This document shows, in pieces, positions 188 through 54,870 of a stretch of DNA of 64,000 nt. Source of the stretch: Elusimicrobiota bacterium. GTDB taxonomy: Bacteria > Elusimicrobiota > UBA8919. The DNA lies in NCBI GenBank assembly GCA_043802785.1, contig JAZDKR010000024.1:97-64096 (forward strand). Direction: 5' to 3'. Each line of letters starts with the position of its first letter. The stretch's first letter is position 1. The notes under the pieces were generated by a model, which had not been told where the DNA came from, did no database searches, and worked only from the letters and a program-made list of their open reading frames with translations. A program made the position numbers and the translations under genes.

Positions 188-272
188 GTAGTCGCCTGAT
201 TTATCAGGCGCCTTGGATTTGTAGTTGCCTCATTTATCGGATACAAGGGCGCTCAATAAATTGAGCAACTAC
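188..272. repeat. About 1.5 tandem copies of a miniature element with GTAGTTGC / GCAACTAC terminal inverted repeats. Core: gcctgatttatcaggc hairpin plus gcgctcaataaattgagcaactac.
   Basis: Near-identical copies at 42366-42417, 45794-45884 and 54819-54870. Shorter relatives at 12238-12268, 16118-16142, 24586-24616, 34002-34023 and 44331-44353. Confidence 0.75.
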
Positions 273-5949: not shown

Positions 5950-7194
5950 TTATTTCAGCCACACCAGCGGGTCCTGCGGAACACCATTTTTGCGAAATTC
6001 AAAATACAACGACGCATCCTGCGAATAGACGGAAATACCGACGATACCGATATCTTCACCTTTCTGAATATCCTGCTCCTCTTTAACATTTATCTTGTCA
6101 AGATTACCATAAACCGTGTAAAATCCGCCGGAGTGGTCAATAACAACCATTTTTCCGTACGACTTAAAATCGCCCGCAAACACAACTTTTCCTTTGTCAA
6201 CCGCTGCGATATTTTGTCCGAGCGTTGACCTAATCCTGATTCCATTATTTATAATCCATGTATCAAGTTCCGGATGCTTTTGTTTGCCGAAAGTTACAGT
6301 TAAATTATTCCTTAATTCCGACGGTTCACCGTCAATAGGCCATGATATATTACCTTTCTTTTTTGACATTTTTAATCTTTCTAATTGCTCTTCCTCTTTT
6401 TGTCTAACAGTTTTAGTTGCTTTTTTTTCCAAAAGTTTTATTAACTCTGAAAGCATCGTCTCTGAATCCCGCAAATTTGCAACCTCCTGCTCATAAAAGA
6501 CCAGTTTTTTAACTACGGTTGATAATAATTTTTTTTTTTCTTTTTTTTGTCGTGCGTACAATTGTTCAGAGTTTTTTTTCTTTTCTTCAAGTTCTTTTAA
6601 TCCGTTCATCTCCGTTTCAAGTTTTATTTTAATTGTTTCATATTCCTGAACATTTTTTAGCGTCTGCGTGTAAATAAACAATTTTTGCCGTGCTAAAAGT
6701 TGAAGAAACTTATACTGTTTAACCATATCAGCAGACGAATTTGAAGAAAGTATTATTCTTGCAGGATACTGGTCGGTCATGGGTCTCCCTACACCATATT
6801 TATATGCAAATCTTAATTCTTTTTTAAATATATTTTTCCATCTAACCGTTTCAAATTTTGCAGTTTCTAATTTTAATTTCAGTGCATCAATTGATTTTTG
6901 CTGTTTTTTTATTAGTATTTTTGTTCTGTACAATTCGGCTTTTGTGGTTTCAAGTTTCCTTACAGTATTTTCAAGATGCGTTTCAAGAGATGCCTCTTTC
7001 TTCTTTATGGTTTTTATATTATTTTCTTTATGAGAAATTTCCGACTGAACACCGACAAGTTCTTTTCTACTTTCTTTAATTTTCTGTTTATATTCTTTTA
7101 CCTGTTTATCATAATCGGAAGCATAAAGGGCAGGGGTTAGGGTATAGGGTATAGGGTATAGGAAAAGCAAAAACAATAAAATAAATTTTTTCAT
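5950..7194 (-). CDS. envC: Coiled-coil M23 peptidase-domain protein, resembling the murein hydrolase activator EnvC.
   Basis: Signal peptide, a long coiled coil and a C-terminal M23 domain (VVIDHSGGFYTVYGNL). Lies next to ftsX. The N-terminal LYPIPYTLTP stretch is encoded by (GGGTATAG)3. Confidence 0.7.
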   Translation of the reverse strand: MKKFILLFLLFLYPIPYTLTPALYASDYDKQVKEYKQKIKESRKELVGVQSEISHKENNIKTIKKKEASLETHLENTVRKLETTKAELYRTKILIKKQQKSIDALKLKLETAKFETVRWKNIFKKELRFAYKYGVGRPMTDQYPARIILSSNSSADMVKQYKFLQLLARQKLFIYTQTLKNVQEYETIKIKLETEMNGLKELEEKKKNSEQLYARQKKEKKKLLSTVVKKLVFYEQEVANLRDSETMLSELIKLLEKKATKTVRQKEEEQLERLKMSKKKGNISWPIDGEPSELRNNLTVTFGKQKHPELDTWIINNGIRIRSTLGQNIAAVDKGKVVFAGDFKSYGKMVVIDHSGGFYTVYGNLDKINVKEEQDIQKGEDIGIVGISVYSQDASLYFEFRKNGVPQDPLVWLK

Positions 7195-7195
7195 T

Positions 7196-7552
7196 TTATT
7201 TTCTCAATGCTTTCATAAGCGACGATAACATTTTTCCAATTTCTTCTTGTAAACTGCAAACTTTTACAAAACCTTCTTGACTAATATATCCTAAATCTTT
7301 CGCAACCATAACTTGTGTTTCCAATTCTGCTAACGAACCAAATGCTATTGATAAAAACTGTAAATATTCGCCTGTATATTGCCTCCCATATCCTTCCGCT
7401 ATGTTTGATGGAATTGAAACTGACGCCCTTCGCATCTGCGATGTAAGTCCATATATTTCCGTTTTTGGAAAATCCATTGTGGTTTTATATATCAACAATA
7501 CCAACTGATACGATTTTTGCCAAACTATAAGTTCCCGATAACTCTTAAGCAT
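7196..7552 (-). CDS. Four-helix-bundle protein of the family found in 23S rRNA intervening sequences.
   Basis: About 118 aa. The family motifs (IVWQKSYQL ... IPSNIAEGYGR ... FLSIAFGSLAELETQ) are recognisable. Confidence 0.7.
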   Translation of the reverse strand: MLKSYRELIVWQKSYQLVLLIYKTTMDFPKTEIYGLTSQMRRASVSIPSNIAEGYGRQYTGEYLQFLSIAFGSLAELETQVMVAKDLGYISQEGFVKVCSLQEEIGKMLSSLMKALRK

Positions 7553-7566
7553 ACATTCACTATTCC

Positions 7567-8412
7567 CTATCCCCTATCCCCTGCCTTTTTAATTCTTACC
7601 ACAAGGCATATAATCATCAGAACGATAGAACTTATTATAATTTCCGATTTGCTAAAAAAAACAGGTGTTTTGAAGTTTTGAACGAAAATATGTTCATTCA
7701 TCAGATATAAAATATAAAAGCCAATCCCGCCCCCTATAATAGCGTCTATCATGCCAAAAAAGATTTTTTTATCTCGCATAGCAGACACAGCGAGCGATAA
7801 CGAAACAACTGAAATAACAACAAATATAGCAAAAATTAAGTTCAGCCATCCGATCAAAGTATTGAATGTTTTATTTATAGTTAATAGATTTTCCGCTTCA
7901 ATTGAAGTGTAATAGATATCTTCCACACCGCTGAGTATTTTTATTTCTTCCGCAATTTTTTTTACAATTTCCGGATCTTTTCTCTTTAAGTAAATATCAA
8001 CAGTTGCTGGCAACGGATTTTCTCCAAGAATTTCCATCTGTTTGGCAAACTCGGGATTTTTTCTGAATTCATCCATTGCTTCCGTTTTTGAAGTATATTT
8101 TATTTTGTCAATTATTTTTATATTTTCAATTTTTTTGATAAGTTCGTTTTTCTGATGAACATTTAATTTATCGTCAATAAATGCAACTATTTCAACCCGC
8201 TCGGAAAGTTCGGAAAGATAGTAGGAAAGATTTTTCACGATAAGTGAAAAAAAACCGTAAAACACAACCGAAATTGTAACAAATGCTATAACAAGCAGCC
8301 CCTGCAGATTTCTTTGAAATCTAACCACAGGAGCAGGTGATATTTTTTTCATAACGGACTTCATTGTACCATATTTTAACTGCATGTCAACCAACAACCC
8401 TTCACTCTTCAC
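7567..8412 (-). CDS. ftsX: Cell-division permease-like protein FtsX.
   Basis: FtsX-like topology: one TM helix, a periplasmic domain and three C-terminal TM helices. Sits next to the EnvC-like gene. The C-terminal KAGDRG and the TAG stop are encoded by the GGGGATAG repeat. Confidence 0.65.
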   Translation of the reverse strand: MKSEGLLVDMQLKYGTMKSVMKKISPAPVVRFQRNLQGLLVIAFVTISVVFYGFFSLIVKNLSYYLSELSERVEIVAFIDDKLNVHQKNELIKKIENIKIIDKIKYTSKTEAMDEFRKNPEFAKQMEILGENPLPATVDIYLKRKDPEIVKKIAEEIKILSGVEDIYYTSIEAENLLTINKTFNTLIGWLNLIFAIFVVISVVSLSLAVSAMRDKKIFFGMIDAIIGGGIGFYILYLMNEHIFVQNFKTPVFFSKSEIIISSIVLMIICLVVRIKKAGDRG

Positions 8413-12237: not shown

Positions 12238-12268
12238 CAAGTTAATGCCGACCAAGGTCGGCAACTAC
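12238..12268. repeat. Short GCAACTAC-family element, caagttaatgccgaccaaggtcggcaactac.
   Basis: The same 31 bp occurs at 24586-24616. It overlaps the proB stop codon. Confidence 0.7.
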
Positions 12269-16117: not shown

Positions 16118-16142
16118 ACTGCCTGATAAATTGGGCAACTAC
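16118..16142. repeat. GCAACTAC-family short element. Its terminal gTAGttgc supplies the panC TAG stop.
   Basis: Sequence ctgcctgataaattgggcaactac. Confidence 0.6.
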
Positions 16143-17059
16143 AAATCAACAACTACACAATCTATAAGACGGGTTTTGCCCACGATTACAGCAACTGCGA
16201 TTACAACTTTGCTTTTTATGTATTTTACTTCCTTAAGCGTTTCAGCATCACGAATGTCTATGTAGTCAATTTTATCAACATTTGGTAAAATTCCGCCACG
16301 GCGGATTTTTCCGCCAAAGCGGATCTCCGACAATATTTTTTTCATTTCGGAAATGATTTTTTTCGCTAATTTTACATTCTTATGTTTTATTAAATTTTTT
16401 GCCATTTGCAAAGCAAAAGAAATCGCGAGTGATCTTTTTCTTTCTGCCCCAGTTAGATAGGCATTTCTGCTGGACAATGCAAGTCCGTATTTTTCGCGAA
16501 CCGTCGGACAGGTAATAATTTGAACGGGGAAGTTGAGGTCGGAAACCATTTTTCTAATAATGACCGACTGTTGAAAATCTTTTAATCCGAAATATGCTTT
16601 GTCCGGCTGAACGATATTAAAAAGTTTAGCAACAATAGTTGCAACCCCTTTGAAATGTCCGGGGCGAAATTTTCCACACATTATATCCGACAATTTTTCA
16701 ACCATTATGTAAGTCAGATAATTTTCAGGATACATTTCAGACGGTTCTGGAGCAAAAACCAAATCCACACCTTCATTTTTACATATAGCGATATCTTTTT
16801 TAATTGGTCTTGGATATTTGCTGAAATCCTCTTTAGGACAAAATTGCGTCGGATTTACAAAAATGCTGACGACAACTATATCGGTTTCTTTTCTTGCACG
16901 GCGAATTAAGAAAATATGTCCCTGATGTAAGGCACCCATCGTCGGAATAAAACCAATTTTTTTGTTGTGCTGTTTGAATTTGAGCACTAAATTTTGAATT
17001 GATTTGATACTATGAATTATTTTCATTTTTTTGACACAGAGGACAGCTCTCCGTGCCAT
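16139..17059 (-). CDS. panC: Pantoate-beta-alanine ligase. The likely start is MKIIHSIKS, near 17026.
   Basis: GFIPTMGALHQGHIFLI (the HxGH motif) and the overall PanC family pattern. Confidence 0.85.
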   Translation of the reverse strand: MARRAVLCVKKMKIIHSIKSIQNLVLKFKQHNKKIGFIPTMGALHQGHIFLIRRARKETDIVVVSIFVNPTQFCPKEDFSKYPRPIKKDIAICKNEGVDLVFAPEPSEMYPENYLTYIMVEKLSDIMCGKFRPGHFKGVATIVAKLFNIVQPDKAYFGLKDFQQSVIIRKMVSDLNFPVQIITCPTVREKYGLALSSRNAYLTGAERKRSLAISFALQMAKNLIKHKNVKLAKKIISEMKKILSEIRFGGKIRRGGILPNVDKIDYIDIRDAETLKEVKYIKSKVVIAVAVIVGKTRLIDCVVVDL

Positions 17060-21278: not shown

Positions 21279-21322
21279 ATTAAAATTTGCGACTACAGAT
21301 ACAGCAGAGCTTCGCTCTGCAA

Positions 21323-22921
21323 CTACAATTTTATCATCTTTACATCTTTAACTTCTGGTAGGTTTTTAATCTCGGATAGGATATTATCGGTTATCGGATT
21401 ATCCACATTTACAATAGTAATTGCATCGCCGCCGGCGGTTTTTCTGCCAAGTTCCATCGCTGCTATATTTATGGAGTTTTTGCCAAGTATCATACCTATT
21501 TTGCCGACAACACCGGGTTTGTCCACATTGGTAAAAACAAGGATGTTTTCCGAGAGTTCAACATCAACATAATAATCATTGATTTTTACTATCCGAACAT
21601 CCTTTTTTCCGAAAACGGTTCCTGAAATAATGTTCTCGGACTTTTCCGTTTTCAGTTTTAGAACTATGAGATTTGTAAAGTCCGCTGTTTCAGACACTCT
21701 TGATTCCGAAACTTTTATTCCTTTCTCCTGTGCGATAAACGATGCATTTATAAAATTCAAAAACCCAGTGTCACTTACTGGCTCAAGCACCCCTTTTACA
21801 GCGGCAATTGTCATCGGCGACAGGTCGTATTTTGCAACTTCGCCGGAATATTGTATTTCTATTGATAAAATAGCACCAGACATACTGCCTGAAAACTGCG
21901 ACGCATAAGAACCGAGTTTTTCTGCGAGGTTTATATACGGCTGCATTTTTTGGAGTATATCTGACGGAATAAATGGAAAATTGACCGCATTTCTTATTGT
22001 GCCATTTGTAAAAAATTCATCTAATTGTTTTGAGATTTCAACCGAAACATTTGTCTGCGCTTCCTCAGTTGATGCACCCAAATGCGGGGTCATTATCACA
22101 TTGTTCATCTCAAAAAACGGCGACTCTACAAGCGGCTCTTTTTCAAAAACATCCAGAGCGGCACCCTTTACTTTGCCGGATTTCAGTGTTTCGGCAAGCG
22201 CTTTTTCATCAATAAGTCCGCCTCTCGCACAGTTTATTATTCTGACACCATCTTTCATTTTTCCGATTGTTTCCGCATTTATAAGATATTTTGTCTGCTC
22301 GGTTTTGGGAGTGTGAACCGTTATGTAATCGGACCTTTTGAAAACTTCATCCAACGATACGGAGTCAACTCCAAGTTGCACTGCCCGTTCTTTCGAAACA
22401 AACGGGTCATAAACAAGCACTTTCATACCAAACGCCAATAGCCGTTTTGCAACTTCAATACCGATTTTTCCCAACCCGATAATTCCGACGGTCTTTCCGA
22501 AAACCTCAACGCCGACAAACTCCTTTTTCTTCCATTCACATTTTTTAAGCGATGCGTTTGCCTGCGGAATGTTTCTGGACAGGGAGAGAAGCATTGAAAC
22601 GGTATGCTCGGCAGCGGATATTGTATTACCGCCGGGAACATTCATCACAACAATCCCTTTTTTTGACGCCTCTTTGACATCAATGTTGTCCACACCTGTT
22701 CCGGCACGACCGATAATTTTGAGATTCTTCGCTATGTTCAGAACATCTTTTGTAACTTTTGTTTCGCTTCTTACCAAAAGTCCATCGTAATTTCCGATAA
22801 TCTGTAAAAGTTCTTCCGGTTTAAGCCCTGTTTTGACATCAACCGAAAATTCCGGATTTTTAATAAGAATTTCCACACCCTCATTTGCCAATGGATCAGA
22901 AACAAGAATCTTTTTCATCAC
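21323..22921 (-). CDS. serA: D-3-phosphoglycerate dehydrogenase with a C-terminal ACT domain.
   Basis: 2-hydroxyacid dehydrogenase motifs (GRAGTGVDNIDV, GIIGLGKIG) with an ASB/ACT tail. 532 aa. Confidence 0.85.
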   Translation of the reverse strand: MMKKILVSDPLANEGVEILIKNPEFSVDVKTGLKPEELLQIIGNYDGLLVRSETKVTKDVLNIAKNLKIIGRAGTGVDNIDVKEASKKGIVVMNVPGGNTISAAEHTVSMLLSLSRNIPQANASLKKCEWKKKEFVGVEVFGKTVGIIGLGKIGIEVAKRLLAFGMKVLVYDPFVSKERAVQLGVDSVSLDEVFKRSDYITVHTPKTEQTKYLINAETIGKMKDGVRIINCARGGLIDEKALAETLKSGKVKGAALDVFEKEPLVESPFFEMNNVIMTPHLGASTEEAQTNVSVEISKQLDEFFTNGTIRNAVNFPFIPSDILQKMQPYINLAEKLGSYASQFSGSMSGAILSIEIQYSGEVAKYDLSPMTIAAVKGVLEPVSDTGFLNFINASFIAQEKGIKVSESRVSETADFTNLIVLKLKTEKSENIISGTVFGKKDVRIVKINDYYVDVELSENILVFTNVDKPGVVGKIGMILGKNSINIAAMELGRKTAGGDAITIVNVDNPITDNILSEIKNLPEVKDVKMIKL

Positions 22922-24585: not shown

Positions 24586-24616
24586 CAAGTTAATGCCGAC
24601 CAAGGTCGGCAACTAC
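24586..24616. repeat. GCAACTAC-family short element, an identical copy of 12238-12268.
   Basis: Sequence caagttaatgccgaccaaggtcggcaactac. Confidence 0.7.
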
Positions 24617-28727: not shown

Positions 28728-29311
28728 CTATTCAATCAAAGTATATGCACCCTCTTGATGCTGGGTCAAATCAAGTCCAATTATCTCATCTATTTCGCTT
28801 ACCCTGACGCCGATGGTTAAATCAACCAATTTGTAAATGATAAATGTCATCGCAAAAGTATAGACAACGGTAACACAAACTGTAATTAACTGCATTATCA
28901 ATTGTTTCGGGTTTCCGAAAAAAAGACCGTTGTTGCCCGCTGGATTTATCAATTTTGAAGCAAAAAGACCCGTTGCCAAAGTTCCTAATATGCCGCTGAT
29001 ACCATGCACCCCAAAAGCATCAAGGGAATCGTCATAGCCCAATTTTGGTTTGATAAGACCGACCGCAACAAAACAGATAACACTAGCCGAAAAACCTATC
29101 AGTATAGCCGATATAACGGCGAAAAAGCAAGCGAGTATCCGAATAAAACCCATTGCAAACTCAAAACGCAAAGAACAATAAAGCACTGCATTAAAATGCC
29201 AAGAACATTTTTTCTTCTAACTATTCCTCCGTAAAAAAATGCAAGCCCTGTCGTCATCAACATCACAAACCCAGCCGATATCAAAACAAAAGCAGTATCT
29301 CCAGAATTCAT
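28728..29311 (-). pseudogene. amtB: Ammonium transporter relic. Only the N-terminal roughly 65 residues and the C-terminal roughly 140 residues remain, in different frames.
   Basis: The two ORFs 29099-29311 and 28728-29186 match the Amt N-terminus (GDTAFVLISAGFVMLMTTGLAFFYGGIVRRKNVL) and C-terminus (DAFGVHGISGILG ...). The span is 584 bp against about 1.2 kb expected. Confidence 0.75.
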
Positions 29312-29815: not shown

Positions 29816-30077
29816 CAGAAAGAATTCCAAAATTTCTAACGTGGTCAAGTGCTTTTTTGGTTTTCCCGAATGAAAAATCTTTAATCCCACTTTGGAATTA
29901 AAGACCTCAATGTCTGACGAACATTTTCTAACCAACTATGGTTTGTAAACTATTTTTTAACTAATACAAACAAAATATATCTTGTTACATATTCTCACTG
30001 TTGTCATTGCTTCGTTGTCCCGACTTGTCGGGACTCCTCGCAATGACGCTTTGCATCAATTTACTCCCGAGCGACCT

Positions 30078-30420
30078 TCATATTTCTGTTGGTATAACCT
30101 CTTTTGAGCGAAACTCTTTTGGGACATAAATATATCCGGAATATGGTTTTTTTTCTTTAACAACCATTCCGGCAAGACCTTCGCCTATTTTAAGTGGTGG
30201 TTTTTTCAAATACTCATTTGAAATTGACTGGGAAGCCCTGATTACAAGTTCATTGTTTTCATTTAAAAGCATTAACGAACATATCTTGAAACCAAATACT
30301 TCAGCAGTAATTGTTACAATCAATTTAAGGATATCGTCAAGATAAAGTTCTGAAGTTATTGCCTGTGATATTTTAGTGAGTGCCTCTATTCACTTACACT
30401 TTTTTCTTTCATATTTTTTT
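30078..30420 (-). pseudogene. Truncated, frameshifted paralog of the GAF-ANTAR gene at 24823-25515. Only the N-terminal third remains.
   Basis: About 70 percent identity to residues 30-120 of the full gene, plus an upstream stretch in another frame. No ANTAR domain. Confidence 0.7.
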
Positions 30421-33970: not shown

Positions 33971-34022
33971 TGCTGAAGCATTGCCCTACAAACGACACGA
34001 CGCCGAGCAATCTCGGCAACTA

Positions 34023-34583
34023 CTACCGTTTATTGAATAGATTCATTGTCTTCTGAATACCGCTCTCAATAAAAACGGAAACGGCATCAGAAGCCCTCAA
34101 AATCGCCGACTTCATTTTTAACGCTTCTTCTTTCGTAAAATCTGAAAGGACAAAATCAACAGCATCAATATCAGTCCCGGGGCGACCAATGCCTATTTTG
34201 ATACGGCAGAACTCATTTGTGCCGAGCGTTTCAATTATTGATTCCACACCGTTATGCCCGCCGGAAGAACCGCTTTTTCTTATCCTCATCCGCCCAGATT
34301 CAATATCCATATCATCGTGGACGACAATAATATCGCTAAAATCAGGACTACCTGCATGGTATTTTTTTACTAATTGTTTTATCGCCAAACCGCTCCTATT
34401 CATAAACAAGGTCGGTTTTACAATAAGGAAATCATCACACAAGGATATAACCGCGCAATCCTTATATTCCTTCCATTTCAGTGATTTATATTCGGCAAAA
34501 TTATCAAGCACCGCAAAACCTATATTGTGCCTCGTATCTGAATACTTTTTTCCGGGATTCCCCAAACCGACTATAATCTTCAT
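34023..34583 (-). CDS. pth: Peptidyl-tRNA hydrolase.
   Basis: MKIIVGLGNPGKKYSDTRHNIGF. The stop TAG is supplied by a GCAACTAC-family element (34002-34023). Confidence 0.9.
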   Translation of the reverse strand: MKIIVGLGNPGKKYSDTRHNIGFAVLDNFAEYKSLKWKEYKDCAVISLCDDFLIVKPTLFMNRSGLAIKQLVKKYHAGSPDFSDIIVVHDDMDIESGRMRIRKSGSSGGHNGVESIIETLGTNEFCRIKIGIGRPGTDIDAVDFVLSDFTKEEALKMKSAILRASDAVSVFIESGIQKTMNLFNKR

Positions 34584-41329: not shown

Positions 41330-41548
41330 ATCTTGCTGTGCGTGACTGCGGAGCATCAATTTATAAGGTCATTGCGAGCGTTAGCGCTTTGTGACAGAAG
41401 TTCCCGATAGTACTTGTCATTGCGAGGTGAAACCGCCCGCCAAACTGTTACCGAAATTGTGAAGTATTACACATAGGCGGGTGGCAATCCCATAGCGAGA
41501 TTGCTTCGTCGGTCGCCCGAGGCGACCTCCTCGCAATGACACTTCACC
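41330..41548. repeat. Cluster of CATTGCGAGG / CCTCGCAATGAC palindromic elements.
   Basis: gtcattgcgagcg..., gtcattgcgaggtgaaaccgcccgcc ... cctcgcaatgacac. Relatives at 29990-30075, 44150-44290 and 48270-48312. Confidence 0.7.
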
Positions 41549-42348
41549 CTACTTCTTTCTGTATGCCTCTAAATATGAGTCGCAATAAAGTTGTTTGCCG
41601 AGGAGCAGTTCTGTTGTTATCATTGAATTCATCAATTCTTTATCAAGTGGATTTAAAATTGCAGCGTCAAGTCCTGCCTCCAAAGCCATAACAAGAAATG
41701 TTCTGTCAACGAGCATTCTGTCAAGTGTTCCCTGTGACACATTTGACAAACCCAAAATTGTTTTCGGAGGTGGGTCGCAAATAATTTTACATTGTTTGAT
41801 TGTTTCCAAGACAGCACGGGAATGATCCTGGGCAACATTTACAGGAAGAATAACCGCATCAATATAAAGATTTTCCATCTCAATTCCATACTCCATTGAT
41901 GAGCAACTATATTCGCCGCAATCTCTAACCGTGCTTCTGCATTCGCAGGAACTCCTGACTTAGTCATTGTCAAAGCGATAACTTTTGAGTTGTATTTTTT
42001 TGCAAGAGGAAGAAGAACATCAAGTTTTTCTTTCTGCCCTGAAGTAGAATTCAAAAATGAGCCGGGACCTGCCAATGAAAGCCCTCTTTCCATAACAACT
42101 AATTTTGTCGTGTCAACAGCGAGTGGTTTATCAGTCACTTCACGAATTACCGTAATTAACCATTCCATATCTTTCAATGGATCTATTGATGCTGGTCCCA
42201 CATTTACATCAAGGACATCAGCACCTGCTTCTAATTGTTTTTTCGCAAGTTCCTGAATTATCAGTTTGTTTTTTGTCTGAATTGCTTCACTGACATTTTT
42301 AAACATCCCGTTAATCTTTTCACCGATAATAAGCATAAACACCCCCAT
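41549..42348 (-). pseudogene. Pterin-binding methyltransferase (MeTr/AcsE-like, methyltetrahydrofolate:corrinoid methyltransferase family), split by a frameshift near 41839-41896.
   Basis: N-terminal MLIIGEKINGMFKNVSEAIQ ... LDVNVG and a C-terminal half in the second ORF. The frames overlap by about 58 nt, with no homopolymer at the junction. Confidence 0.6.
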
Positions 42349-42365: not shown

Positions 42366-42417
42366 GTAGTTGCCCGATTTATCGGGCATAAAGGCGCTCA
42401 ATAAATTGAGCAACTAC
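42366..42417. repeat. Complete 52-bp element bounded by terminal inverted repeats, gtagttgcccgatttatcgggcataaaggcgctcaataaattgagcaactac.
   Basis: The two ends, gtagttgc and gcaactac, are inverted repeats of each other. Confidence 0.8.
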
Positions 42418-42477
42418 AAAACTGCGACTACACAAACCATGCAACATTGAAATTCTTCACCTGCGGTGAACCTACTC

Positions 42478-44149: not shown

Positions 44150-44290
44150 TTTTGTTTGTCATTGCGAGGTGAAACCACCCGCCCCAAAGGGGCGAGGCCT
44201 CGCCATATGCGGGTGGCAATCCCAAAAAATAGATTGCTTCGTCCTCCGACTTCGTCGGAGTCCTCGCAATGACAACCAAATTAAAATTTG
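44150..44290. repeat. CATTGCGAGG-family palindromic element pair.
   Basis: gtcattgcgaggtgaaaccacccgcc ... cctcgcaatgacaac. Confidence 0.7.
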
Positions 44291-44390
44291 TGATTACAGC
44301 AGAGAAACCATGCCACTAACACAACGCACGGCGCCCGATAAATCGGGCAACTACATCTGTCTTTCTCTCCTAATCTCCTAATCTCTGCTT

Positions 44391-45884
<1,494 letters not shown>

Positions 45885-47232: not shown

Positions 47233-48882
47233 ATTATCACAAATTTTTTCGGCAAAATCAAGTAATTTTTTTGTTTTGCCGAGTGAATCTGTTTCAGAGT
47301 ATGTCCTTAAAATCGGCTCTGTTCCCGACGGACGAAGCAATAGCCAACCTGTCCCGCCAAGGCGGGACGGATCAAAAATTATTTTTATTCCGTCATAGGT
47401 TCTGATTTCCTTGATCCCGCCGAGGCGAGACGCGAATTGCCACGAATTTCCGCCAAAGGCGGACGAATTGGGACGAATTTTTTGTTCAATCTGTTTAACA
47501 AATTCTTGCTTATCAACGGGCTTTGAAAGTTTTATATCTCTTCTTAAATAATATGATTTCCCGAATCTTTTTTGCAAATCATCAACTAACTGTGAAAGTT
47601 TTTTCTTTGTTTGCGAAAGCATCTCGGTAATTAAAAGTGCATTTAAGATACCGTCTCGTTCCGGTATGCTGCCTTTCCATCCGTAACCGCCGGATTCTTC
47701 ACCACCGAGCAAAACATTTTCAGCGAGCATTTTTTCACAAACATACTTGAAACCGACAGGAACCTCTTCAAAAGGGAGACAAAATTTTTTCGCAATTCTT
47801 TCGGAAAGATACCCAAGTGAAATCGCCTGAACAACTTTTCCTTTTATTTTTCTTCCTTCTACAAGATACAACAAAATCAGAGGAAAAACAATATGCGGTG
47901 AAAGATATCTGCCTTTGTCGTCTATAACACCCAAGCGGTCAGCGTCGCCGTCAAAAGCAAAACCTACGGCTGCCCCATTTTTCAATACCACTTTTTTTAG
48001 TTCTGTGAGATTTTTTTCTATCGGCTCGGGATTTACTCCGGCAAATAATGGGTCATGAGAATTATGTATTGAATAAATCTTTGAGATTCTTCGTCCCGTT
48101 ATGCGGGACTCAGAATGACTTTGCGAGTCATTTTTGAATCCGCCACAGACGGACTCAAAAATACCAACGCCGCTTCCATGCATATAATCAAGGACAATTT
48201 TGGATTTTGATGATGGATTCAATCTAACAAGTGATTTCAGATATTTTTTGTAATCGCTGATAATATCCACTCTTCGCGTCATTGCGAGGTCGTCACTGCG
48301 ACCTCGCAATGACAATTGTTGGATATCCTCATTATTAGTTTTGACAGCACTCTTATACAGATGTTTTGAAATTGTATTTATGATTTTTTCCGAAACAGAA
48401 CCTCCGTATTGAAGTTTTATTTTTAGACCGTTCCAGTCGGGCGGATTATGACTTGCCGTTATCATCACCCCAAGACAATTGTTTTTTTTACAAAAAAATG
48501 AGACCGATGGCGAAGTTGCTGCCGTCTGCGAAACCGCCGAATGTATCCCATTCGCAGAAATAACTCTTGCAACATGGAGTGCAAATTTCTCCGAAAGAAA
48601 CCTGTTGTCATACCCGACGATAACGACAGGGGATAGGGGGTAGGGGATAGGGTGTAGCGGCGAATGTAAATTCGCTAAATTTGTCCGCCTAGGCGGACCG
48701 CTACACCCTACTCCCTCCACACTACACTCTGCCTTTATATAATCCGCAATCGCCTGAGCAACTATTCCAACATTCTCAAAGGTAAAGTCCCTTGCAATTA
48801 TCCCGCGCCACCCGTCAGTACCAAACTTAATGGCAGGGGATAGGGGATAGGGGATAGGGGATAGTAGTTTTTGTTTTTCCAT
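47194..48882 (-). CDS. Phosphomannomutase / phosphoglucomutase family enzyme carrying about five in-frame repeat insertions.
   Basis: FGTDGWRG, TASHNP, RPSGTEP. Inserts at about 48834-48870, 48627-48729, 48270-48312, 48069-48132 and 47415-47472. Confidence 0.8.
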   Translation of the reverse strand: MEKQKLLSPIPYPLSPAIKFGTDGWRGIIARDFTFENVGIVAQAIADYIKAECSVEGVGCSGPPRRTNLANLHSPLHPIPYPLSPVVIVGYDNRFLSEKFALHVARVISANGIHSAVSQTAATSPSVSFFCKKNNCLGVMITASHNPPDWNGLKIKLQYGGSVSEKIINTISKHLYKSAVKTNNEDIQQLSLRGRSDDLAMTRRVDIISDYKKYLKSLVRLNPSSKSKIVLDYMHGSGVGIFESVCGGFKNDSQSHSESRITGRRISKIYSIHNSHDPLFAGVNPEPIEKNLTELKKVVLKNGAAVGFAFDGDADRLGVIDDKGRYLSPHIVFPLILLYLVEGRKIKGKVVQAISLGYLSERIAKKFCLPFEEVPVGFKYVCEKMLAENVLLGGEESGGYGWKGSIPERDGILNALLITEMLSQTKKKLSQLVDDLQKRFGKSYYLRRDIKLSKPVDKQEFVKQIEQKIRPNSSAFGGNSWQFASRLGGIKEIRTYDGIKIIFDPSRLGGTGWLLLRPSGTEPILRTYSETDSLGKTKKLLDFAEKICDNLTTAKQTQNISR

Positions 48883-50510: not shown

Positions 50511-51534
50511 TAAAATAGTCAACTGTTTTCTTCAAGCCGTCGCTGAATTTAATTTTTGCCGACCAGCCGAGAATTTTTTTCGCTTTTCTCACATCAAGCG
50601 AACTTTTGAATAACTCGCCAGTCCTCTGATATTCATATACTGGTTTTTGAGAATATCCTGTTATTTTTGAAAGTTCGTAAAAAAGTTGGTTTACCGACTC
50701 TGTCTTTCCGGTTCCTATATTAAAAATTTCGTTTTCGCCTTTGATAAGTGCAATCAAATTCGCATTGACGATATCTGAAACAAAAACATAGTCACGCATC
50801 TGCTCGCCGTCGCCAAAAATATTTACACAGCCCTTCCTTAAGGTCTTTTGAGGAAGGGCTGGGTTTACCTGCTCATTCGCCAGAATTCTGTTGATGAAAA
50901 TCGTCACAACACCCGCTTCGCCGCGAGGGTCCTGACGGGGTCCGTAGACATTGCCATACCTTAAAGCAGTGTATTTTAATCCAGATATTTTTGCGTAATA
51001 ATTAAGATAATACTCAACTGACCGTTTTGCAATTCCATATGGCGAAAGTGGTTCGGGGGTTTTGTTTTCCGTCGGTGACTCTCCACGACGAGTTCCACAT
51101 TCACCATACATCACACCACCACTGGATGCAAAAATGAATTTTTTCACACCGTACCGGACAGAGTTTTCCAAAAGATTTATTGTTCCCAGAATGTTTGTCG
51201 TCGCATCAAATATCGGGTCGGCAACTGATTTTCTCACATCTATCTGTGCAGCGTGATGATTTACAATATCCGGCTTTTCCGTCTCAAATATCTGCATAAT
51301 CCGTTTTTTATTCGTGATGTCTGTGTTGTAAAATTTTGCTTTCGGATTTAAGTTTTCTTTTCTGCCAGTAATTAAATTATCAACAACAATCACACTATGC
51401 CCCTGTTGAATATAAGCATCTACAATATTTGAACCAATAAACCCCGCCCCACCTGCTACTAAAATTTTTAATCCCATTATTGAGGTTGAATCTCCATAAA
51501 TTTTAATTTCCATACTAAAAAAATTGCTTCCCAA
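50497..51534 (-). CDS. NAD-dependent epimerase/dehydratase (SDR family). The likely start is MGLKILVAGGAGFIGS, at 51477.
   Basis: Rossmann GxxGxxG and the YxxxK catalytic pair. Confidence 0.7.
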   Translation of the reverse strand: MGSNFFSMEIKIYGDSTSIMGLKILVAGGAGFIGSNIVDAYIQQGHSVIVVDNLITGRKENLNPKAKFYNTDITNKKRIMQIFETEKPDIVNHHAAQIDVRKSVADPIFDATTNILGTINLLENSVRYGVKKFIFASSGGVMYGECGTRRGESPTENKTPEPLSPYGIAKRSVEYYLNYYAKISGLKYTALRYGNVYGPRQDPRGEAGVVTIFINRILANEQVNPALPQKTLRKGCVNIFGDGEQMRDYVFVSDIVNANLIALIKGENEIFNIGTGKTESVNQLFYELSKITGYSQKPVYEYQRTGELFKSSLDVRKAKKILGWSAKIKFSDGLKKTVDYFRKCE

Positions 51535-52307
51535 ATAATATTTTTCGAAATCTTGGATTTGCCAATCGATCTATCGGCAAAAAATATAGGGTACTCAAAA
51601 ATTTTATATCCGAGTTTGTGTGCCCTGTATTTCATTTCTATCAAAAATCCATAACCCTCTGACTTCACTTCGTCAAGATTTATATTTTCCAGCACTTTAC
51701 GACGGAAACCCATAAAACCAGATGTGCAGTCATTAACAGGCATACATAAAACTGTTTTCGCATACAAATTCCCCAGACGGGATATTATTTTTCTATGGAC
51801 GGGCATTGAATTACAACCGCCTTTTACATAACGAGAACCGACTACTAAATCATAACTTTTGAGTTTTTTTAGGAACCCCAAAAAACATTCCGGGTTATGG
51901 GAAAAATCTGCATCCATAGTAAAAATAAAATCAAAATCTCTTACCAAAGCCCACTTAAATCCTTGAATGTATGCTGTCCCAAGTCCAAGTTTTTTTTCAC
52001 GATGAATAATTTCTAATTGAGATTGCGAAGATTGTTCCAATTCTGTCATATGAGATTGCTTCGTCGTCCCGATCTTATCGGGACTCCTCGCAATGACACT
52101 TTGTGCCGCTTTTAACCCTTCCGATATCTCTCCCGTTCCGTCGGGCGAATTATCGTCAATGATTAAGAGATTGAGATCGCCCGCCACACGGATCGGCGAG
52201 TCCGCCTTTGGCGGAAGATTGAGAACTTGGTCAACAATCTTTTCTATATTTTCTCTCTCGTTATATGTCGGGATTATAATCAAAACTTTACTTTTTTTTA
52301 GTGACAT
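51477..52307 (-). CDS. GT2 glycosyltransferase, polyprenol-phosphate mannosyltransferase-like. Carries two in-frame repeat insertions at about 52175-52214 and 52040-52105.
   Basis: IIIPTYNEREN ... DDNSPDGT. The inserts encode PPKADSPIRVAGD and ...ARSPDKIGTTKQSHMTEL... Confidence 0.7.
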   Translation of the reverse strand: MSLKKSKVLIIIPTYNERENIEKIVDQVLNLPPKADSPIRVAGDLNLLIIDDNSPDGTGEISEGLKAAQSVIARSPDKIGTTKQSHMTELEQSSQSQLEIIHREKKLGLGTAYIQGFKWALVRDFDFIFTMDADFSHNPECFLGFLKKLKSYDLVVGSRYVKGGCNSMPVHRKIISRLGNLYAKTVLCMPVNDCTSGFMGFRRKVLENINLDEVKSEGYGFLIEMKYRAHKLGYKIFEYPIFFADRSIGKSKISKNIIWEAIFLVWKLKFMEIQPQ

Positions 52308-53537: not shown

Positions 53538-54866
53538 TTATTCTCCATCCTCTACATACGACAGTCCAATAAAAAAAGTAATCGGTAATAATATACGCGC
53601 GGTCGTTAAATTATTCTCAAAAAAACCGGCAATCATCAGCATTATGATAGAATACCCAACAGCAAGGTTTAGTGTGCATCTAACACTTCCTTTTTCAGCC
53701 ATCCGTGCACGCTTAAACGCCATTATGGAATTGCCAAACCAAAACAGGACAAAAAGAATTAAACCAATTAAACCCTCGCTAACACCGACATTCAGATATG
53801 TATTATGCGGATGTCCCTTGAGTACATTTAATATATCTTTTTCACTACTTCCCCCTTTATAACACCTGGAAACAATCCATAATAACGGATATTGCTCCTT
53901 TTCCTTTTCAAAATATACTTCTACCTCTTTCCCCCAATTTTCATAGCCGACACCAATTATAGGATGGTTTTTCATTATTTTCAATGCTGTTCCCCACATC
54001 CATAATCGCTCAACATTACTTAAATTTTCTTTCGTATCAAATATACTTATAATTCTACTTTTTATGCTGAAAGAATACTTAAATATACCAATAAACAAAA
54101 GGAAAATCAATCCGGTTCCTAATATGAACCATTTTATTTTTTTTCTCAATAGTATCAATAGTACCGTCAATAAAGTTGCTACATAATATGTTCTTGATCC
54201 ATTCAAAAGAACCGCAATAAAATTAAGCAACGTCAAAACAAATAAACCAACTTTTATTTTCACATTTTCATTAGAATAACAAAAAAATATAAAAGATACT
54301 ATTGCTATTATACTGTAATACCCTCCGGTGTGTAAAAAATTCCTGAAATTCAAACCGATAAATCTGCCGTTTATAAACGGTTGGTTTTTCAAAAATGGAT
54401 AATCAAAATGAAAAATATGCTGTAAAATCCCCAGCAATACAACAAAAGAAGCAACAACCAAAGTAGAATAAACGATTACTTTTATTTTCTTGATATGTAA
54501 CTGCGGAATAACAAAATACGGAAGATGATCCCAAAATTTCCCTCCGTATTTAATCCAATTTGAAGGATTAAAAAAAACTCTCATTGCACGCCAAAAATAA
54601 AGAAAAAGCAGCGGCAACCCTTCCCAACTGGAAAAAAACTTCTTTCCCAACACGAGATTTATTAAAACAATTAAAAGCAGCAAGCCCAGAATAATATTAG
54701 TAACAGCAATTGAGATTGATGTACTTACACCATAAATAACAAGAAGTATAAATATCGTATCGGTAAATATTTTTTTGTCAGTCAGAATGTTTTTCATATC
54801 TATTTTGTCAACTAAATTGTAGTTGCCTGATTTATCAGGCATAACATCGCCCAATAAATTGGGCAA
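53538..54866 (-). CDS. O-antigen ligase/polymerase family membrane protein. The likely start is MKNILTDKK, near 54797.
   Basis: About 10 TM helices and a periplasmic loop with HPHNTYLNVGVSEGLIG. The reported N-terminal 23 residues are encoded by a miniature element. Confidence 0.65.
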   Translation of the reverse strand: MPNLLGDVMPDKSGNYNLVDKIDMKNILTDKKIFTDTIFILLVIYGVSTSISIAVTNIILGLLLLIVLINLVLGKKFFSSWEGLPLLFLYFWRAMRVFFNPSNWIKYGGKFWDHLPYFVIPQLHIKKIKVIVYSTLVVASFVVLLGILQHIFHFDYPFLKNQPFINGRFIGLNFRNFLHTGGYYSIIAIVSFIFFCYSNENVKIKVGLFVLTLLNFIAVLLNGSRTYYVATLLTVLLILLRKKIKWFILGTGLIFLLFIGIFKYSFSIKSRIISIFDTKENLSNVERLWMWGTALKIMKNHPIIGVGYENWGKEVEVYFEKEKEQYPLLWIVSRCYKGGSSEKDILNVLKGHPHNTYLNVGVSEGLIGLILFVLFWFGNSIMAFKRARMAEKGSVRCTLNLAVGYSIIMLMIAGFFENNLTTARILLPITFFIGLSYVEDGE

Positions 54867-54870
54867 CTAC
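54819..54870. repeat. GTAGTTGC/GCAACTAC miniature element. It supplies the TAG stop of the capD-like gene.
   Basis: Sequence gtagttgcctgatttatcaggcataacatcgcccaataaattgggcaactac. Confidence 0.8.

What the first reader, a model, noticed from the sequence alone, without database searches (positions are those of the whole stretch)
42366..42417. Miniature-element family with GTAGTTGC / GCAACTAC terminal inverted repeats, where the TIR supplies TAG stop codons
Complete 52-bp units (42366-42417, 54819-54870) and longer 1.5-copy versions (188-272, 45794-45884) consist of a TIR, a perfect palindrome gcctgatttatcaggc, a second palindrome ctcaataaattgag, and the other TIR. Shorter relatives sit at 12238-12268, 16118-16142, 24586-24616, 34002-34023 and 44331-44353. 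In at least three cases the terminal gTAGttgc is the stop codon of the upstream gene: panC at 16139, pth at 34023 and the capD-like gene at 54867. The element also creates the apparent N-terminal extension of the O-antigen ligase ORF. This suggests insertion preference at gene 3' ends, or selection for terminator or stop-codon function.
Basis: seen in the sequence. Interest (0 to 1): 0.7.

Follow-up and report, generated by a model that had tools for sequence, protein, structure and literature searches.

The report
GTAG-headed REP/REPIN repeats in Elusimicrobia
The "miniature element" is a family of 22-base hairpin repeats (REP sequences, alone or as inverted pairs) of a known kind thought to be copied by a dedicated RAYT enzyme; the repeat is real, but its behaviour, including donating TAG stop codons, is already described for such repeats.

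Summary
GTAGTTGC occurs 14 times in the window against 0.74 expected.

The repeating unit is not a 52-bp element with terminal inverted repeats. It is a 22-nt module: an unpaired head, GTAGTT, followed by a 6-7 bp hairpin whose base is GC-rich, e.g. GTAGTTGCCTGATTTATCAGGC. Modules occur singly (7 sites, all on the gene strand), as head-out inverted pairs (the two 52-bp units) and as three-module clusters.

This matches GTAG-tagged REP/REPIN/BIME repeats. No transposase lies in the window (Elusimicrobia MAG). Elsewhere the same modules flank a small HUH-Y1 protein that scores best as a REP-associated tyrosine transposase (RAYT). An independent search with that protein found 80 metagenome loci, and 79 carry GTAG-hairpin modules within 400 bp, mostly with the exact head GTAGTTGC.

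The stop-codon coincidence holds across phyla: 10 of 110 upstream ORFs end on the head's TAG. It was already reported for GTAG REPs (PMC3733652).

The modules have no T-tails, so they are not intrinsic terminators. There are no consistent target-site duplications. They are absent from syntenic contigs of related Elusimicrobia.

Verdict: a new member of a known kind. The mildly notable points are near-identity of the repeat across about 18 phylum-level groups and its presence in phage contigs.

The parts
188..272 (.). Three-module cluster downstream of gatC: 188-209(+) GTAGTCGCCTGATTTATCAGGC; 221-242(+) with a degenerate stem; 251-272(-) GTAGTTGCTCAATTTATTGAGC.
   Evidence: Same architecture and spacers as 45793-45884. 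ssDNA fold z = -6.0.
12238..12268 (-). Single module GTAGTTGCCGACCTTGGTCGGC plus the 3' extension ATTAACTTG. The amino-acid-kinase ORF reads through it (...DVVADLGRH*).
   Evidence: Shares a 31-nt stretch with 24586-24616.
16121..16142 (-). Single module GTAGTTGCCCAATTTATCAGGC with a hybrid, imperfect stem. The head's TAG (16141-16139) is the panC stop.
21304..21326 (-). Single module GTAGTTGCAGAGCGAAGCTCTGC. The head's TAG (21325-21323) is the stop of the serA-like 3-phosphoglycerate dehydrogenase gene. An orphan head GTAGTCGC lies at 21289-21296(-).
24586..24616 (-). Single module, a copy of the one at 12238-12268. It lies between the GAF-ANTAR gene and gdh.
34002..34023 (-). Single module GTAGTTGCCGAGATTGCTCGGC. 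The pth stop (34025-34023) overlaps the head by 1 nt, and the head's TAG follows in frame.
42366..42417 (.). 52-bp head-out doublet (REPIN/BIME-like): 42366-42387(+) and 42396-42417(-). An orphan head GTAGTCGC lies at 42424-42431(-).
   Evidence: Folds as two hairpins, z = -5.2.
44333..44354 (-). Single module GTAGTTGCCCGATTTATCGGGC, 37 nt downstream of ahcY.
44782..44803 (-). Variant module GTAGCGGTCGGATTTATCCGAC lying in frame inside ahcY. It is part of a 27-nt net insertion (...TRSGRIYPT...) that three orthologues lack.
45793..45884 (.). Three-module cluster between metK and ahcY: 45793-45814(+), 45827-45848(+), 45863-45884(-).
   Evidence: Absent from the same intergenic region in L119, L120 and L121.
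54819..54870 (.). 52-bp head-out doublet between the capD-like gene and wzy. The head's TAG (54869-54867) is the capD-like stop. The head's TTG (54866) is the spurious start of the wzy ORF.
   Evidence: L120 lacks a 98-nt segment containing it.

Best explanation
These are GTAG-tagged repetitive extragenic palindromes (REPs).

The unit is a 22-nt module: an unpaired guide-like head (T)GTAGTT, then a 6-7 bp hairpin whose base is GC/CG/CG and whose loop is usually TTTA.

By analogy with characterised REP systems, a single-copy RAYT (TnpA-REP, an HUH-Y1 enzyme) encoded elsewhere in the genome binds the single-stranded form, using the GTAG head plus the hairpin. It cleaves and rejoins nearby, spreading modules in trans without target-site duplications. 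This step is inferred, not shown.

Because the head contains TAG in one frame, and many stems contain TGA in a second frame, a module that lands in or next to the 3' end of a gene closes the ORF at once. Such insertions are tolerated, and the module ends up supplying the stop codon.

Shown here: anatomy, enrichment, stem covariation, the RAYT association in other genomes, and absence from orthologous sites in relatives.
Inferred: the mobilisation mechanism, and any host effect on mRNA stability or translation.
For: Anatomy and enrichment.

Stem covariation: among 158 pattern hits whose three degenerate stem pairs were not forced to be complementary, 148 have all three Watson-Crick, against about 20 expected. 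ssDNA folds give z = -3.8 to -6.2.

RAYT association:
- Y1_Tnp proteins of 137-145 aa lie next to the modules in a Poribacteria MAG (L012, flanked on both sides by inverted modules), an Anaerolineae MAG (L038) and a Doudnabacteria MAG (L044).
- Their best NCBIfam model is REP-associated tyrosine transposase at 67-76 bits, against IS200 at 18-32 bits.
- Their best PDB match is E. coli TnpA-REP 4ER8, E = 1e-8.
- The HUH histidines (H65, H67), WQPNYYEH and Y120-x-x-NNP are conserved in 29 homologues.
- JGI names several homologues RayT.
- A protein-anchored metagenome scan, independent of the DNA motif, gave 80 loci. 79 have GTAG-hairpin modules within 400 bp, 71 on both sides, and 235 heads are exactly GTAGTTGC.

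Other points:
- No consistent target-site duplication at 48 doublets.
- Syntenic contigs of related Elusimicrobia (MetK 87-93% identical; 55 kb) carry no modules, and L120 lacks the capD/wzy doublet.
- Doublets and clusters share spacer sequence, as if copied as composite units.
- Stop-codon spike: 10 of 110 ORFs end at offset +1 and 3 at +9, with every other offset at 3 or fewer.

Literature:
- RAYT subclass 2.4 has the motifs NH[IFV]H / WQ / YIxNNP, REP stems with three G-C pairs at the base, 'double foot' forms, in-frame REP insertions and a multi-phylum distribution (PMC6006769).
Against: - No RAYT gene lies in the 64-kb window (tblastn; Pfam on 30 ORFs). The rest of this genome is not available, so the cognate enzyme is unproven for this organism.
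- The RAYT-like proteins score just below the NCBIfam equivalog cut-off (67-76 bits against 80).
- No transposition or cleavage has been demonstrated for this clade.
- The relatives' intergenic regions are too diverged to give base-exact empty sites, apart from the capD/wzy junction, where the difference is a 98-nt segment rather than the doublet alone.
Confidence: 0.88

Rival explanations
1. A classical MITE: a deletion derivative of a DDE-type insertion sequence, bounded by the 8-bp terminal inverted repeats GTAGTTGC/GCAACTAC and mobilised by a transposase that recognises those ends.
For: Two 52-bp units have perfect 8-bp inverted termini. Copies are dispersed and intergenic.
Against: - 7 of 11 sites are single modules with one head only.
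- There is no consistent target-site duplication.
- No IS with these ends was seen.
- The gene that is consistently flanked by the modules is a RAYT-like Y1 enzyme.
Confidence: 0.03
2. A host-selected cis-acting RNA/DNA signal rather than a mobile repeat. Candidates are a transcription terminator, an mRNA 3' stabiliser or processing site, or a protein-binding site, kept at gene ends by selection.
For: - All 7 single modules in the window are in the sense orientation, just after genes.
- In phage contigs, single modules are almost always sense and sit just upstream of the Shine-Dalgarno sequence and ATG of the next gene.
- The hairpin is maintained by covariation.
- The sequence is conserved across phyla.
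Against: - No T-tail follows the hairpins, and no module is called terminator-like.
- There is no Rfam match.
- Modules are absent from the same junctions in related genomes.
- Crude ORF-based counts in cellular loci of other phyla show no sense bias (27:26 and 16:15).
- The association with RAYT genes is tight.
- This reading can coexist with mobility as a secondary, exapted role.
Confidence: 0.07
3. Ends of an IS200/IS605-type element (palindrome-associated transposable elements) mobilised by an ordinary multi-copy TnpA of the IS200 family, rather than a domesticated RAYT.
For: The associated protein carries the Pfam Y1_Tnp (IS200-like) domain. The mechanism would likewise act on single-stranded DNA and leave no duplications.
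Against: - The protein scores 18-32 bits on the IS200 model (cut-off 55), against 67-76 bits on the RAYT model.
- Most homologue clusters in the protein search are each seen on one to a few contigs.
- The flanks are GTAG-headed REPs in variable number and orientation, not defined left and right ends.
- No TnpB partner was seen.
Confidence: 0.02

Closest known systems
GTAG-tagged REP superfamily (Di Nocera et al. 2013, PMC3733652), including E. coli REP/BIME and Pseudomonas REPINs
   Same: - Short stem-loop with a conserved unpaired 5' GTAG.
- High copy number, mostly extragenic, downstream of genes.
- Frequent inverted dimers.
- Occasional in-frame intragenic copies.
- The head's TAG is used as the stop codon of the flanking ORF.
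   Different: - The head is conserved over 8 nt (GTAGTTGC), plus a preferred T at position -1 (73%), not just 4 nt.
- The two hairpins of a doublet are usually different stem variants (e.g. CTGA and CCAA), so the doublet can fold either as two small hairpins or as one imperfect long one.
- The host is an Elusimicrobia MAG, a phylum absent from the phyla that paper reports for GTAG repeats.
RAYT subclass 2.4 (Quentin et al. 2018, PMC6006769), equal to RAYT Group 4 (Bertels et al. 2017, PMC5581495), with its REPs
   Same: - Catalytic motifs fit: xH[ILA]H, WQ, Y[IV]xNNP.
- REP stem with three G-C pairs at its base.
- 'Double foot' forms with GTAG ... CTAC at both ends.
- In-frame REP insertions in genes.
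- Scattered over many phyla.
   Different: - The proteins here are shorter (137-145 aa against a subclass mean of 194).
- The residue before the first His is N, D or T.
- Bertels reports a low abundance of flanking 16-mers for Group 4 (about 14 per replicon). This window has about 17 modules in 64 kb.
- Assignment rests on motifs only. No phylogeny with reference sequences was made.
E. coli TnpA-REP / REPtron (PDB 4ER8; Corneloup et al. 2021, PMC8266576)
   Same: - Best structural-database match of the associated protein.
- The gene is flanked by its own REPs.
- The GTAG head sits in the position of a guide sequence.
- The TTTA loop is the same as that of the Marinomonas Group 3 REP.
   Different: - Only about 30% identical over the core.
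- The E. coli REP needs a bulged stem, whereas these stems are perfect.
- The cleavage dinucleotide (CT or CA in studied systems) is unknown here. T, not CT, dominates the 5' flank.

Membership tests
GTAG-tagged REP | Short (20-40 nt) stem-loop repeat | tested here: met
   22-nt module with a 6-7 bp stem. Covariation: 148 of 158 hits against about 20 expected.
GTAG-tagged REP | Conserved unpaired GTAG at one end of the palindrome | tested here: met
   GTAG was fixed by the search pattern. Positions 5-8 (TTGC), allowed only one mismatch by the detector, are 89-97% conserved in 245 modules, and the unconstrained position -1 is T in 73%.
GTAG-tagged REP | Many dispersed, mainly extragenic copies | tested here: met
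   About 17 modules at 11 sites in 64 kb. GTAGTTGC occurs 14 times against 0.74 expected. A genome-wide count was not possible.
REPIN/BIME-RAYT system (REPtron) | Inverted REP pairs with a short spacer that can form a larger hairpin | tested here: met
   42366-42417, 54819-54870 and the pairs within both clusters. 48 head-out doublets in other loci.
REPIN/BIME-RAYT system (REPtron) | A RAYT gene in the same genome, flanked by the same REPs | tested here: inconclusive
   None in the window, and the rest of the genome is not available. Met in other genomes: L012, L038, L044 and 79 of 80 metagenome loci.
REPIN/BIME-RAYT system (REPtron) | The associated protein is a RAYT (HUH + Tyr, TnpA-REP-like) and not an IS200 TnpA | tested here: met
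   NF047646 at 67-76 bits (just under the cut-off of 80) against IS200 at 18-32 bits. 4ER8 is the best PDB hit. HUH, WQ and Y-x-x-NNP are conserved.
REPIN/BIME-RAYT system (REPtron) | RAYT binds and cleaves its single-stranded REP | not testable with these tools
   Needs biochemistry (a cleavage and strand-transfer assay as in PMC8266576).
RAYT subclass 2.4 / Group 4 | Motifs NH[IFV]H, WQ, YIxNNP; REP stem base of three G-C pairs; double-foot forms | tested here: met
   Alignment A1 against Table 1 and the text of PMC6006769. The first motif is N/D/T-H-x-H. No phylogenetic placement was done.
Classical TIR-MITE | Both terminal inverted repeats present in every copy | tested here: not met
   7 of 11 sites have a single head.
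Classical TIR-MITE | Target-site duplication flanking the element | tested here: not met
   48 doublets show no consistent flank repeat: k=2, 3 matches (3 expected); k=3, 5; k=4, 1.
Intrinsic terminator | GC-rich hairpin followed by a T-run | tested here: not met
   No module appears among the terminator-like sites. The 3' flanks lack T-runs.
Any Rfam RNA family | Reaches a family's gathering score | tested here: not met
   Only one tRNA in the window.

The most novel reading that the evidence does not exclude
One REP sequence, nearly invariant (TGTAGTTGC + GC-clamped hairpin + TTTA loop), and one compact RAYT clade whose members are about 50% or more identical, are shared by MAGs labelled as about 18 phylum-level groups. 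These include Elusimicrobia, Poribacteria, Omnitrophota, Chloroflexi, Nitrospirae, Zixibacteria, Planctomycetes and the CPR groups Doudnabacteria and Saccharibacteria. The same modules occur in tailed-phage contigs, where they sit in the sense orientation just ahead of ribosome-binding sites. If real, and not a product of MAG binning errors, this is a REP-RAYT system that moves horizontally as a unit on a very wide scale. That contrasts with the prevailing picture of lineage-specific, vertically inherited REPIN-RAYT pairs. The modules may also have a conserved RNA-level role that phages exploit.
Probability: 0.25. Interest if true: 0.55.

Novelty: new member of a known kind. Interest (0 to 1): 0.3.

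Why it matters
For annotation:
- These modules create false N-terminal extensions (wzy).
- They supply real stop codons (panC, the serA-like gene, the capD-like gene).
- They add in-frame peptides (ahcY).
- Recognising them improves gene calls in Elusimicrobia and many other uncultivated lineages.

For biology:
- The finding extends GTAG-REP/RAYT systems to a phylum for which two literature searches here turned up no report.
- It gives a well-defined 22-nt substrate and a compact (about 140 aa) RAYT clade that could be tested biochemically.
- The very wide taxonomic spread of one REP sequence, and its presence in phage genomes, bears on whether REP-RAYT systems are strictly vertical 'domesticated' partners.

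Tried and rejected
- Cyanobacterial SDR/STRR repeats were my first guess from the look of the sequence. I dropped it: MetK places the window in Elusimicrobia.
- CRISPR array or integron attC sites: the spacing is irregular and there is no cas or integrase context. Not pursued further.
- Link to the 23S-rRNA-IVS-protein gene at 7196-7552: it is flanked by a different repeat (GGGGATAGGG runs), not by these modules.
- Exact look-ups of three window proteins found no source contig. The host genome could therefore not be retrieved, and a genome-wide census and RAYT search in this organism were impossible.
- Clustering ORFs around 118 module-bearing loci gave no recurrent neighbour except the three RAYTs.
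- Orientation tests in cellular loci showed no bias: against the gene strand 27:26, 16:15 and 7:7, and against local GC skew 48:52. These tests rest on crude ORF proxies and 8-kb skews, so they are weak. They contrast with 7 of 7 sense in the window and near-complete sense orientation in phage contigs.
- A literature search for the motif itself returned only irrelevant primer matches.

Full report
**1. What is in the sequence**

- The units at 42366-42417 and 54819-54870 are 52 bp long. They read GTAGTTGC-hairpin-spacer-hairpin-GCAACTAC.
- 188-272 and 45793-45884 each hold three modules.
- Single copies lie at 12247-12268, 16121-16142, 24595-24616, 34002-34023 and 44333-44354.

The signal is far above chance.
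- GTAGTTGC occurs 14 times against 0.74 expected.
- GTAGTCGC occurs 6 times against 0.52.
- The 21-22-nt module patterns occur 9 and 7 times against 0.00.

All genes in the window are on the - strand. The window has about 38% G+C and a steady negative GC skew. MetK is 93% identical to proteins of Elusimicrobia MAGs.

**2. The real unit**

Aligning all copies shows that the repeat is a 22-nt module: GTAGTTGC, then a palindrome that begins inside the head. In GTAGTTGCCTGATTTATCAGGC the stem is G7-C22 to A12-T17 and the loop is TTTA.
- Stem sequences differ between copies (CCTGA, CCCGA, CTCAA, CCCAA, CCGACC, CCGAG, AGAGC) but stay complementary.
- I scanned one genome per species with a pattern that left three stem pairs free to mismatch. 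148 of 158 hits had all three pairs Watson-Crick, against about 20 expected.
- The '52-bp element' is two such modules, head-out.
- 7 of the 11 sites in the window have one module only.
- As single-stranded DNA the doublets fold either as two small hairpins or as one long imperfect hairpin, with z = -5 to -6.
- The doublets and the three-module clusters share spacer sequence, as if copied as composite units.

**3. What it is**

A conserved unpaired GTAG in front of a short hairpin, in many dispersed copies and often as inverted dimers, defines GTAG-tagged REP sequences (PMC3733652). It is also the substrate of REP-associated tyrosine transposases (PMC3479197, PMC8266576).

The window itself encodes no Y1 transposase. 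Pfam on 30 ORFs found none, and tblastn found none.

Among the loci returned by the motif scan, three carry a 137-145-aa Y1_Tnp protein next to the modules. They come from Poribacteria, Anaerolineae and Doudnabacteria MAGs.
- In L012 the gene is bracketed by inverted modules. In L044 it sits among several doublets.
- These proteins score 67-76 bits on NCBIfam 'REP-associated tyrosine transposase' (cut-off 80) and only 18-32 bits on the IS200 model.
- Their best solved relative is E. coli TnpA-REP, 4ER8.
- 29 homologues conserve the HUH histidines, WQPNYYEH and Y-x-x-NNP.
- Several are named RayT by JGI, and most clusters are seen on one to a few contigs.

The key independent test was a protein-anchored scan of metagenome contigs, which knows nothing of the DNA motif.
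- It returned 80 RAYT loci.
- 79 have GTAG-hairpin modules within 400 bp, and 71 have them on both sides.
- 235 of the heads are exactly GTAGTTGC.

The catalytic motifs, the three G-C pairs at the stem base, the 'double-foot' GTAG...CTAC forms, the in-frame insertions and the multi-phylum scatter all fit RAYT subclass 2.4, also called Group 4 (PMC6006769; PMC5581495). This assignment rests on motifs, not on a tree.

**4. Evidence for mobility**

- 48 doublets show no consistent target-site duplication, as expected for Y1 enzymes and unlike DDE-type MITEs.
- Position -1 is T in 73% of 245 modules. This is either part of the unit or a target preference.
- Syntenic contigs from three related Elusimicrobia (MetK 87-93% identical, 55 kb in all) contain no module at all. 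The metK-ahcY, ahcY-traF and traF-downstream spacers that hold modules in the window are unrelated in sequence there.
- At the capD-like/wzy junction, relative L120 has the two genes overlapping. The window has an extra 98 nt that includes the doublet.
- A variant module, GTAGCGGTCGGATTTATCCGAC, lies in frame inside ahcY as part of a 27-nt net insertion that all three orthologues lack.

**5. The stop codons**

In the window the head's TAG is the stop of three genes:
- panC,
- the serA-like gene,
- the capD-like gene, which is extended by I-D-K relative to L120, where a TGA ends it.

Two further genes end beside or within a module:
- pth ends on a TAG that shares only its G with the head, and the head's TAG follows in frame.
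- The amino-acid-kinase ORF reads through a module in the open frame and ends just after it.

Across 246 modules from many phyla, 110 have a sense ORF of at least 100 codons ending nearby.
- 10 of them end exactly on the head's TAG.
- 3 end on the TGA at offset +9 in the stem.
- No other offset exceeds 3.

So the coincidence is real and general. It has already been reported for GTAG REPs. My reading is inferential: two of the three frames close inside the module, so insertions into or beside a gene's 3' end are tolerated.

The wzy 'extension' is an artefact. The longest-ORF rule starts at the TTG inside the head.

**6. What it probably does not do**

- No module is followed by a T-run, and none is called terminator-like.
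- There is no Rfam match.
- A role as an mRNA 3' stabiliser, or as a brake on termination-proximal translation, is possible by analogy with E. coli REPs. That analogy rests on my own knowledge of the literature and was not tested here.

**7. Orientation**

- In the window all 7 single modules are on the gene strand, which is also the G-rich strand. Transcription and replication are therefore confounded.
- In cellular loci from other phyla I found no bias against the gene strand (27:26, 16:15, 7:7) or against local skew (48:52). These proxies are crude.
- In 30 IMG/VR contigs that carry the motif, the head strand matches the dominant coding strand in almost every contig.
- One contig, L210, encodes portal, major head and tail proteins. 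Its five modules each sit just upstream of the Shine-Dalgarno sequence and ATG of the next gene.
- Many of these contigs are related to one another, so the number of independent sites is about 18.

**8. Breadth**

These came from MAGs labelled Omnitrophota, Poribacteria (including closed chromosomes), Dehalococcoidia/Chloroflexi/Anaerolineae, Zixibacteria, Nitrospirae, Nitrospinota, Ignavibacteria, Saprospiraceae, Elusimicrobia, WOR-3, Stahlbacteria, Planctomycetia, Acidobacteria, Proteobacteria, Clostridia, Doudnabacteria and Saccharibacteria.

REP families are usually described as species- or genus-specific, so this spread of one sequence is the most unusual aspect. Subclass 2.4 is already known to be scattered over phyla, and MAG binning errors could inflate the list.

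**9. Verdict**

This is a genuine, well-defined GTAG-REP/REPIN family with a cognate RAYT clade. It is a new member of a known kind, in a phylum for which two literature searches here turned up no report. The TIR-MITE model and the terminator idea are not supported, and the stop-codon effect is real but already known. Interest is modest. The open points are the cross-phylum and phage distribution and the strand bias.

Noticed in passing
window 30037-30080(-), 41368-41540, 44158-44275, 44547-44590(-), 48278-48313, 52054-52097(-): A second repeat family: GTCATTGCGAGG-[AGTCCCGA..TCGGGAC hairpin]-GACGAAGCAATCTC. Intergenic copies are 110-170-nt structures bounded by GTCATTGCGAGG / CCTCGCAATGAC inverted repeats. 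Other copies lie in frame inside genes: ahcY ([18 protein letters not shown], shared with L120 but absent from L119 and L121), a phosphoglucomutase (SLRGRSDDLAMT) and ORF 51477-52307 (VIARSPDKIGTTKQSH).
   Followed up: partly
window 7130-7620 (-): A 23S-rRNA-intervening-sequence-protein gene (PF05635, 7196-7552) is bracketed by inverted runs of GGGGATAGGG / CCCTATACCC heptamer-like repeats. It looks like a small inserted cassette.
   Followed up: no
window 44782-44803 (-), inside ahcY: A variant-head module (GTAGCGGTCGGATTTATCCGAC) is translated in the only open frame. It is part of a 27-nt net insertion (...TRSGRIYPT...) that three Elusimicrobia orthologues lack. The same variant head occurs in a Zixibacteria locus (L018).
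   Followed up: partly
L202-L231 (IMG/VR contigs), e.g. L210 43-6386: The same GTAGTTGC modules occur in 30 viral contigs. In L210 (portal, major head and tail genes) five single modules are all sense and lie about 5-25 nt upstream of the next gene's start codon, just before its Shine-Dalgarno sequence. One upstream ORF ends on the stem's TGA.
   Followed up: partly
window 41549-42348 (-): A folP-like Pterin_bind gene is split into two overlapping ORFs (41839-42348 and 41549-41896). This may be a frameshift or a pseudogene. It lies directly downstream of the 42366-42417 doublet.
   Followed up: no
window 28728-29186 (-): This ORF matches only the C-terminal third of the ammonium-transporter domain (profile positions 271-399), so it looks like a truncated or fragmented amt gene.
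   Followed up: no
window 16149-16156, 21289-21296, 42424-42431 (all -): Orphan heads (GTAGTTGT or GTAGTCGC) without a hairpin lie 6-14 nt from complete modules. They may be remnants of decayed or partially deleted neighbouring modules.
   Followed up: no
L122-L201 (RAYT loci): In many RAYT loci a module starts 9-15 nt before, or within about 20 nt after, the end of the tblastn match. The RAYT gene's own 3' end therefore often abuts or overlaps a REP module.
   Followed up: no
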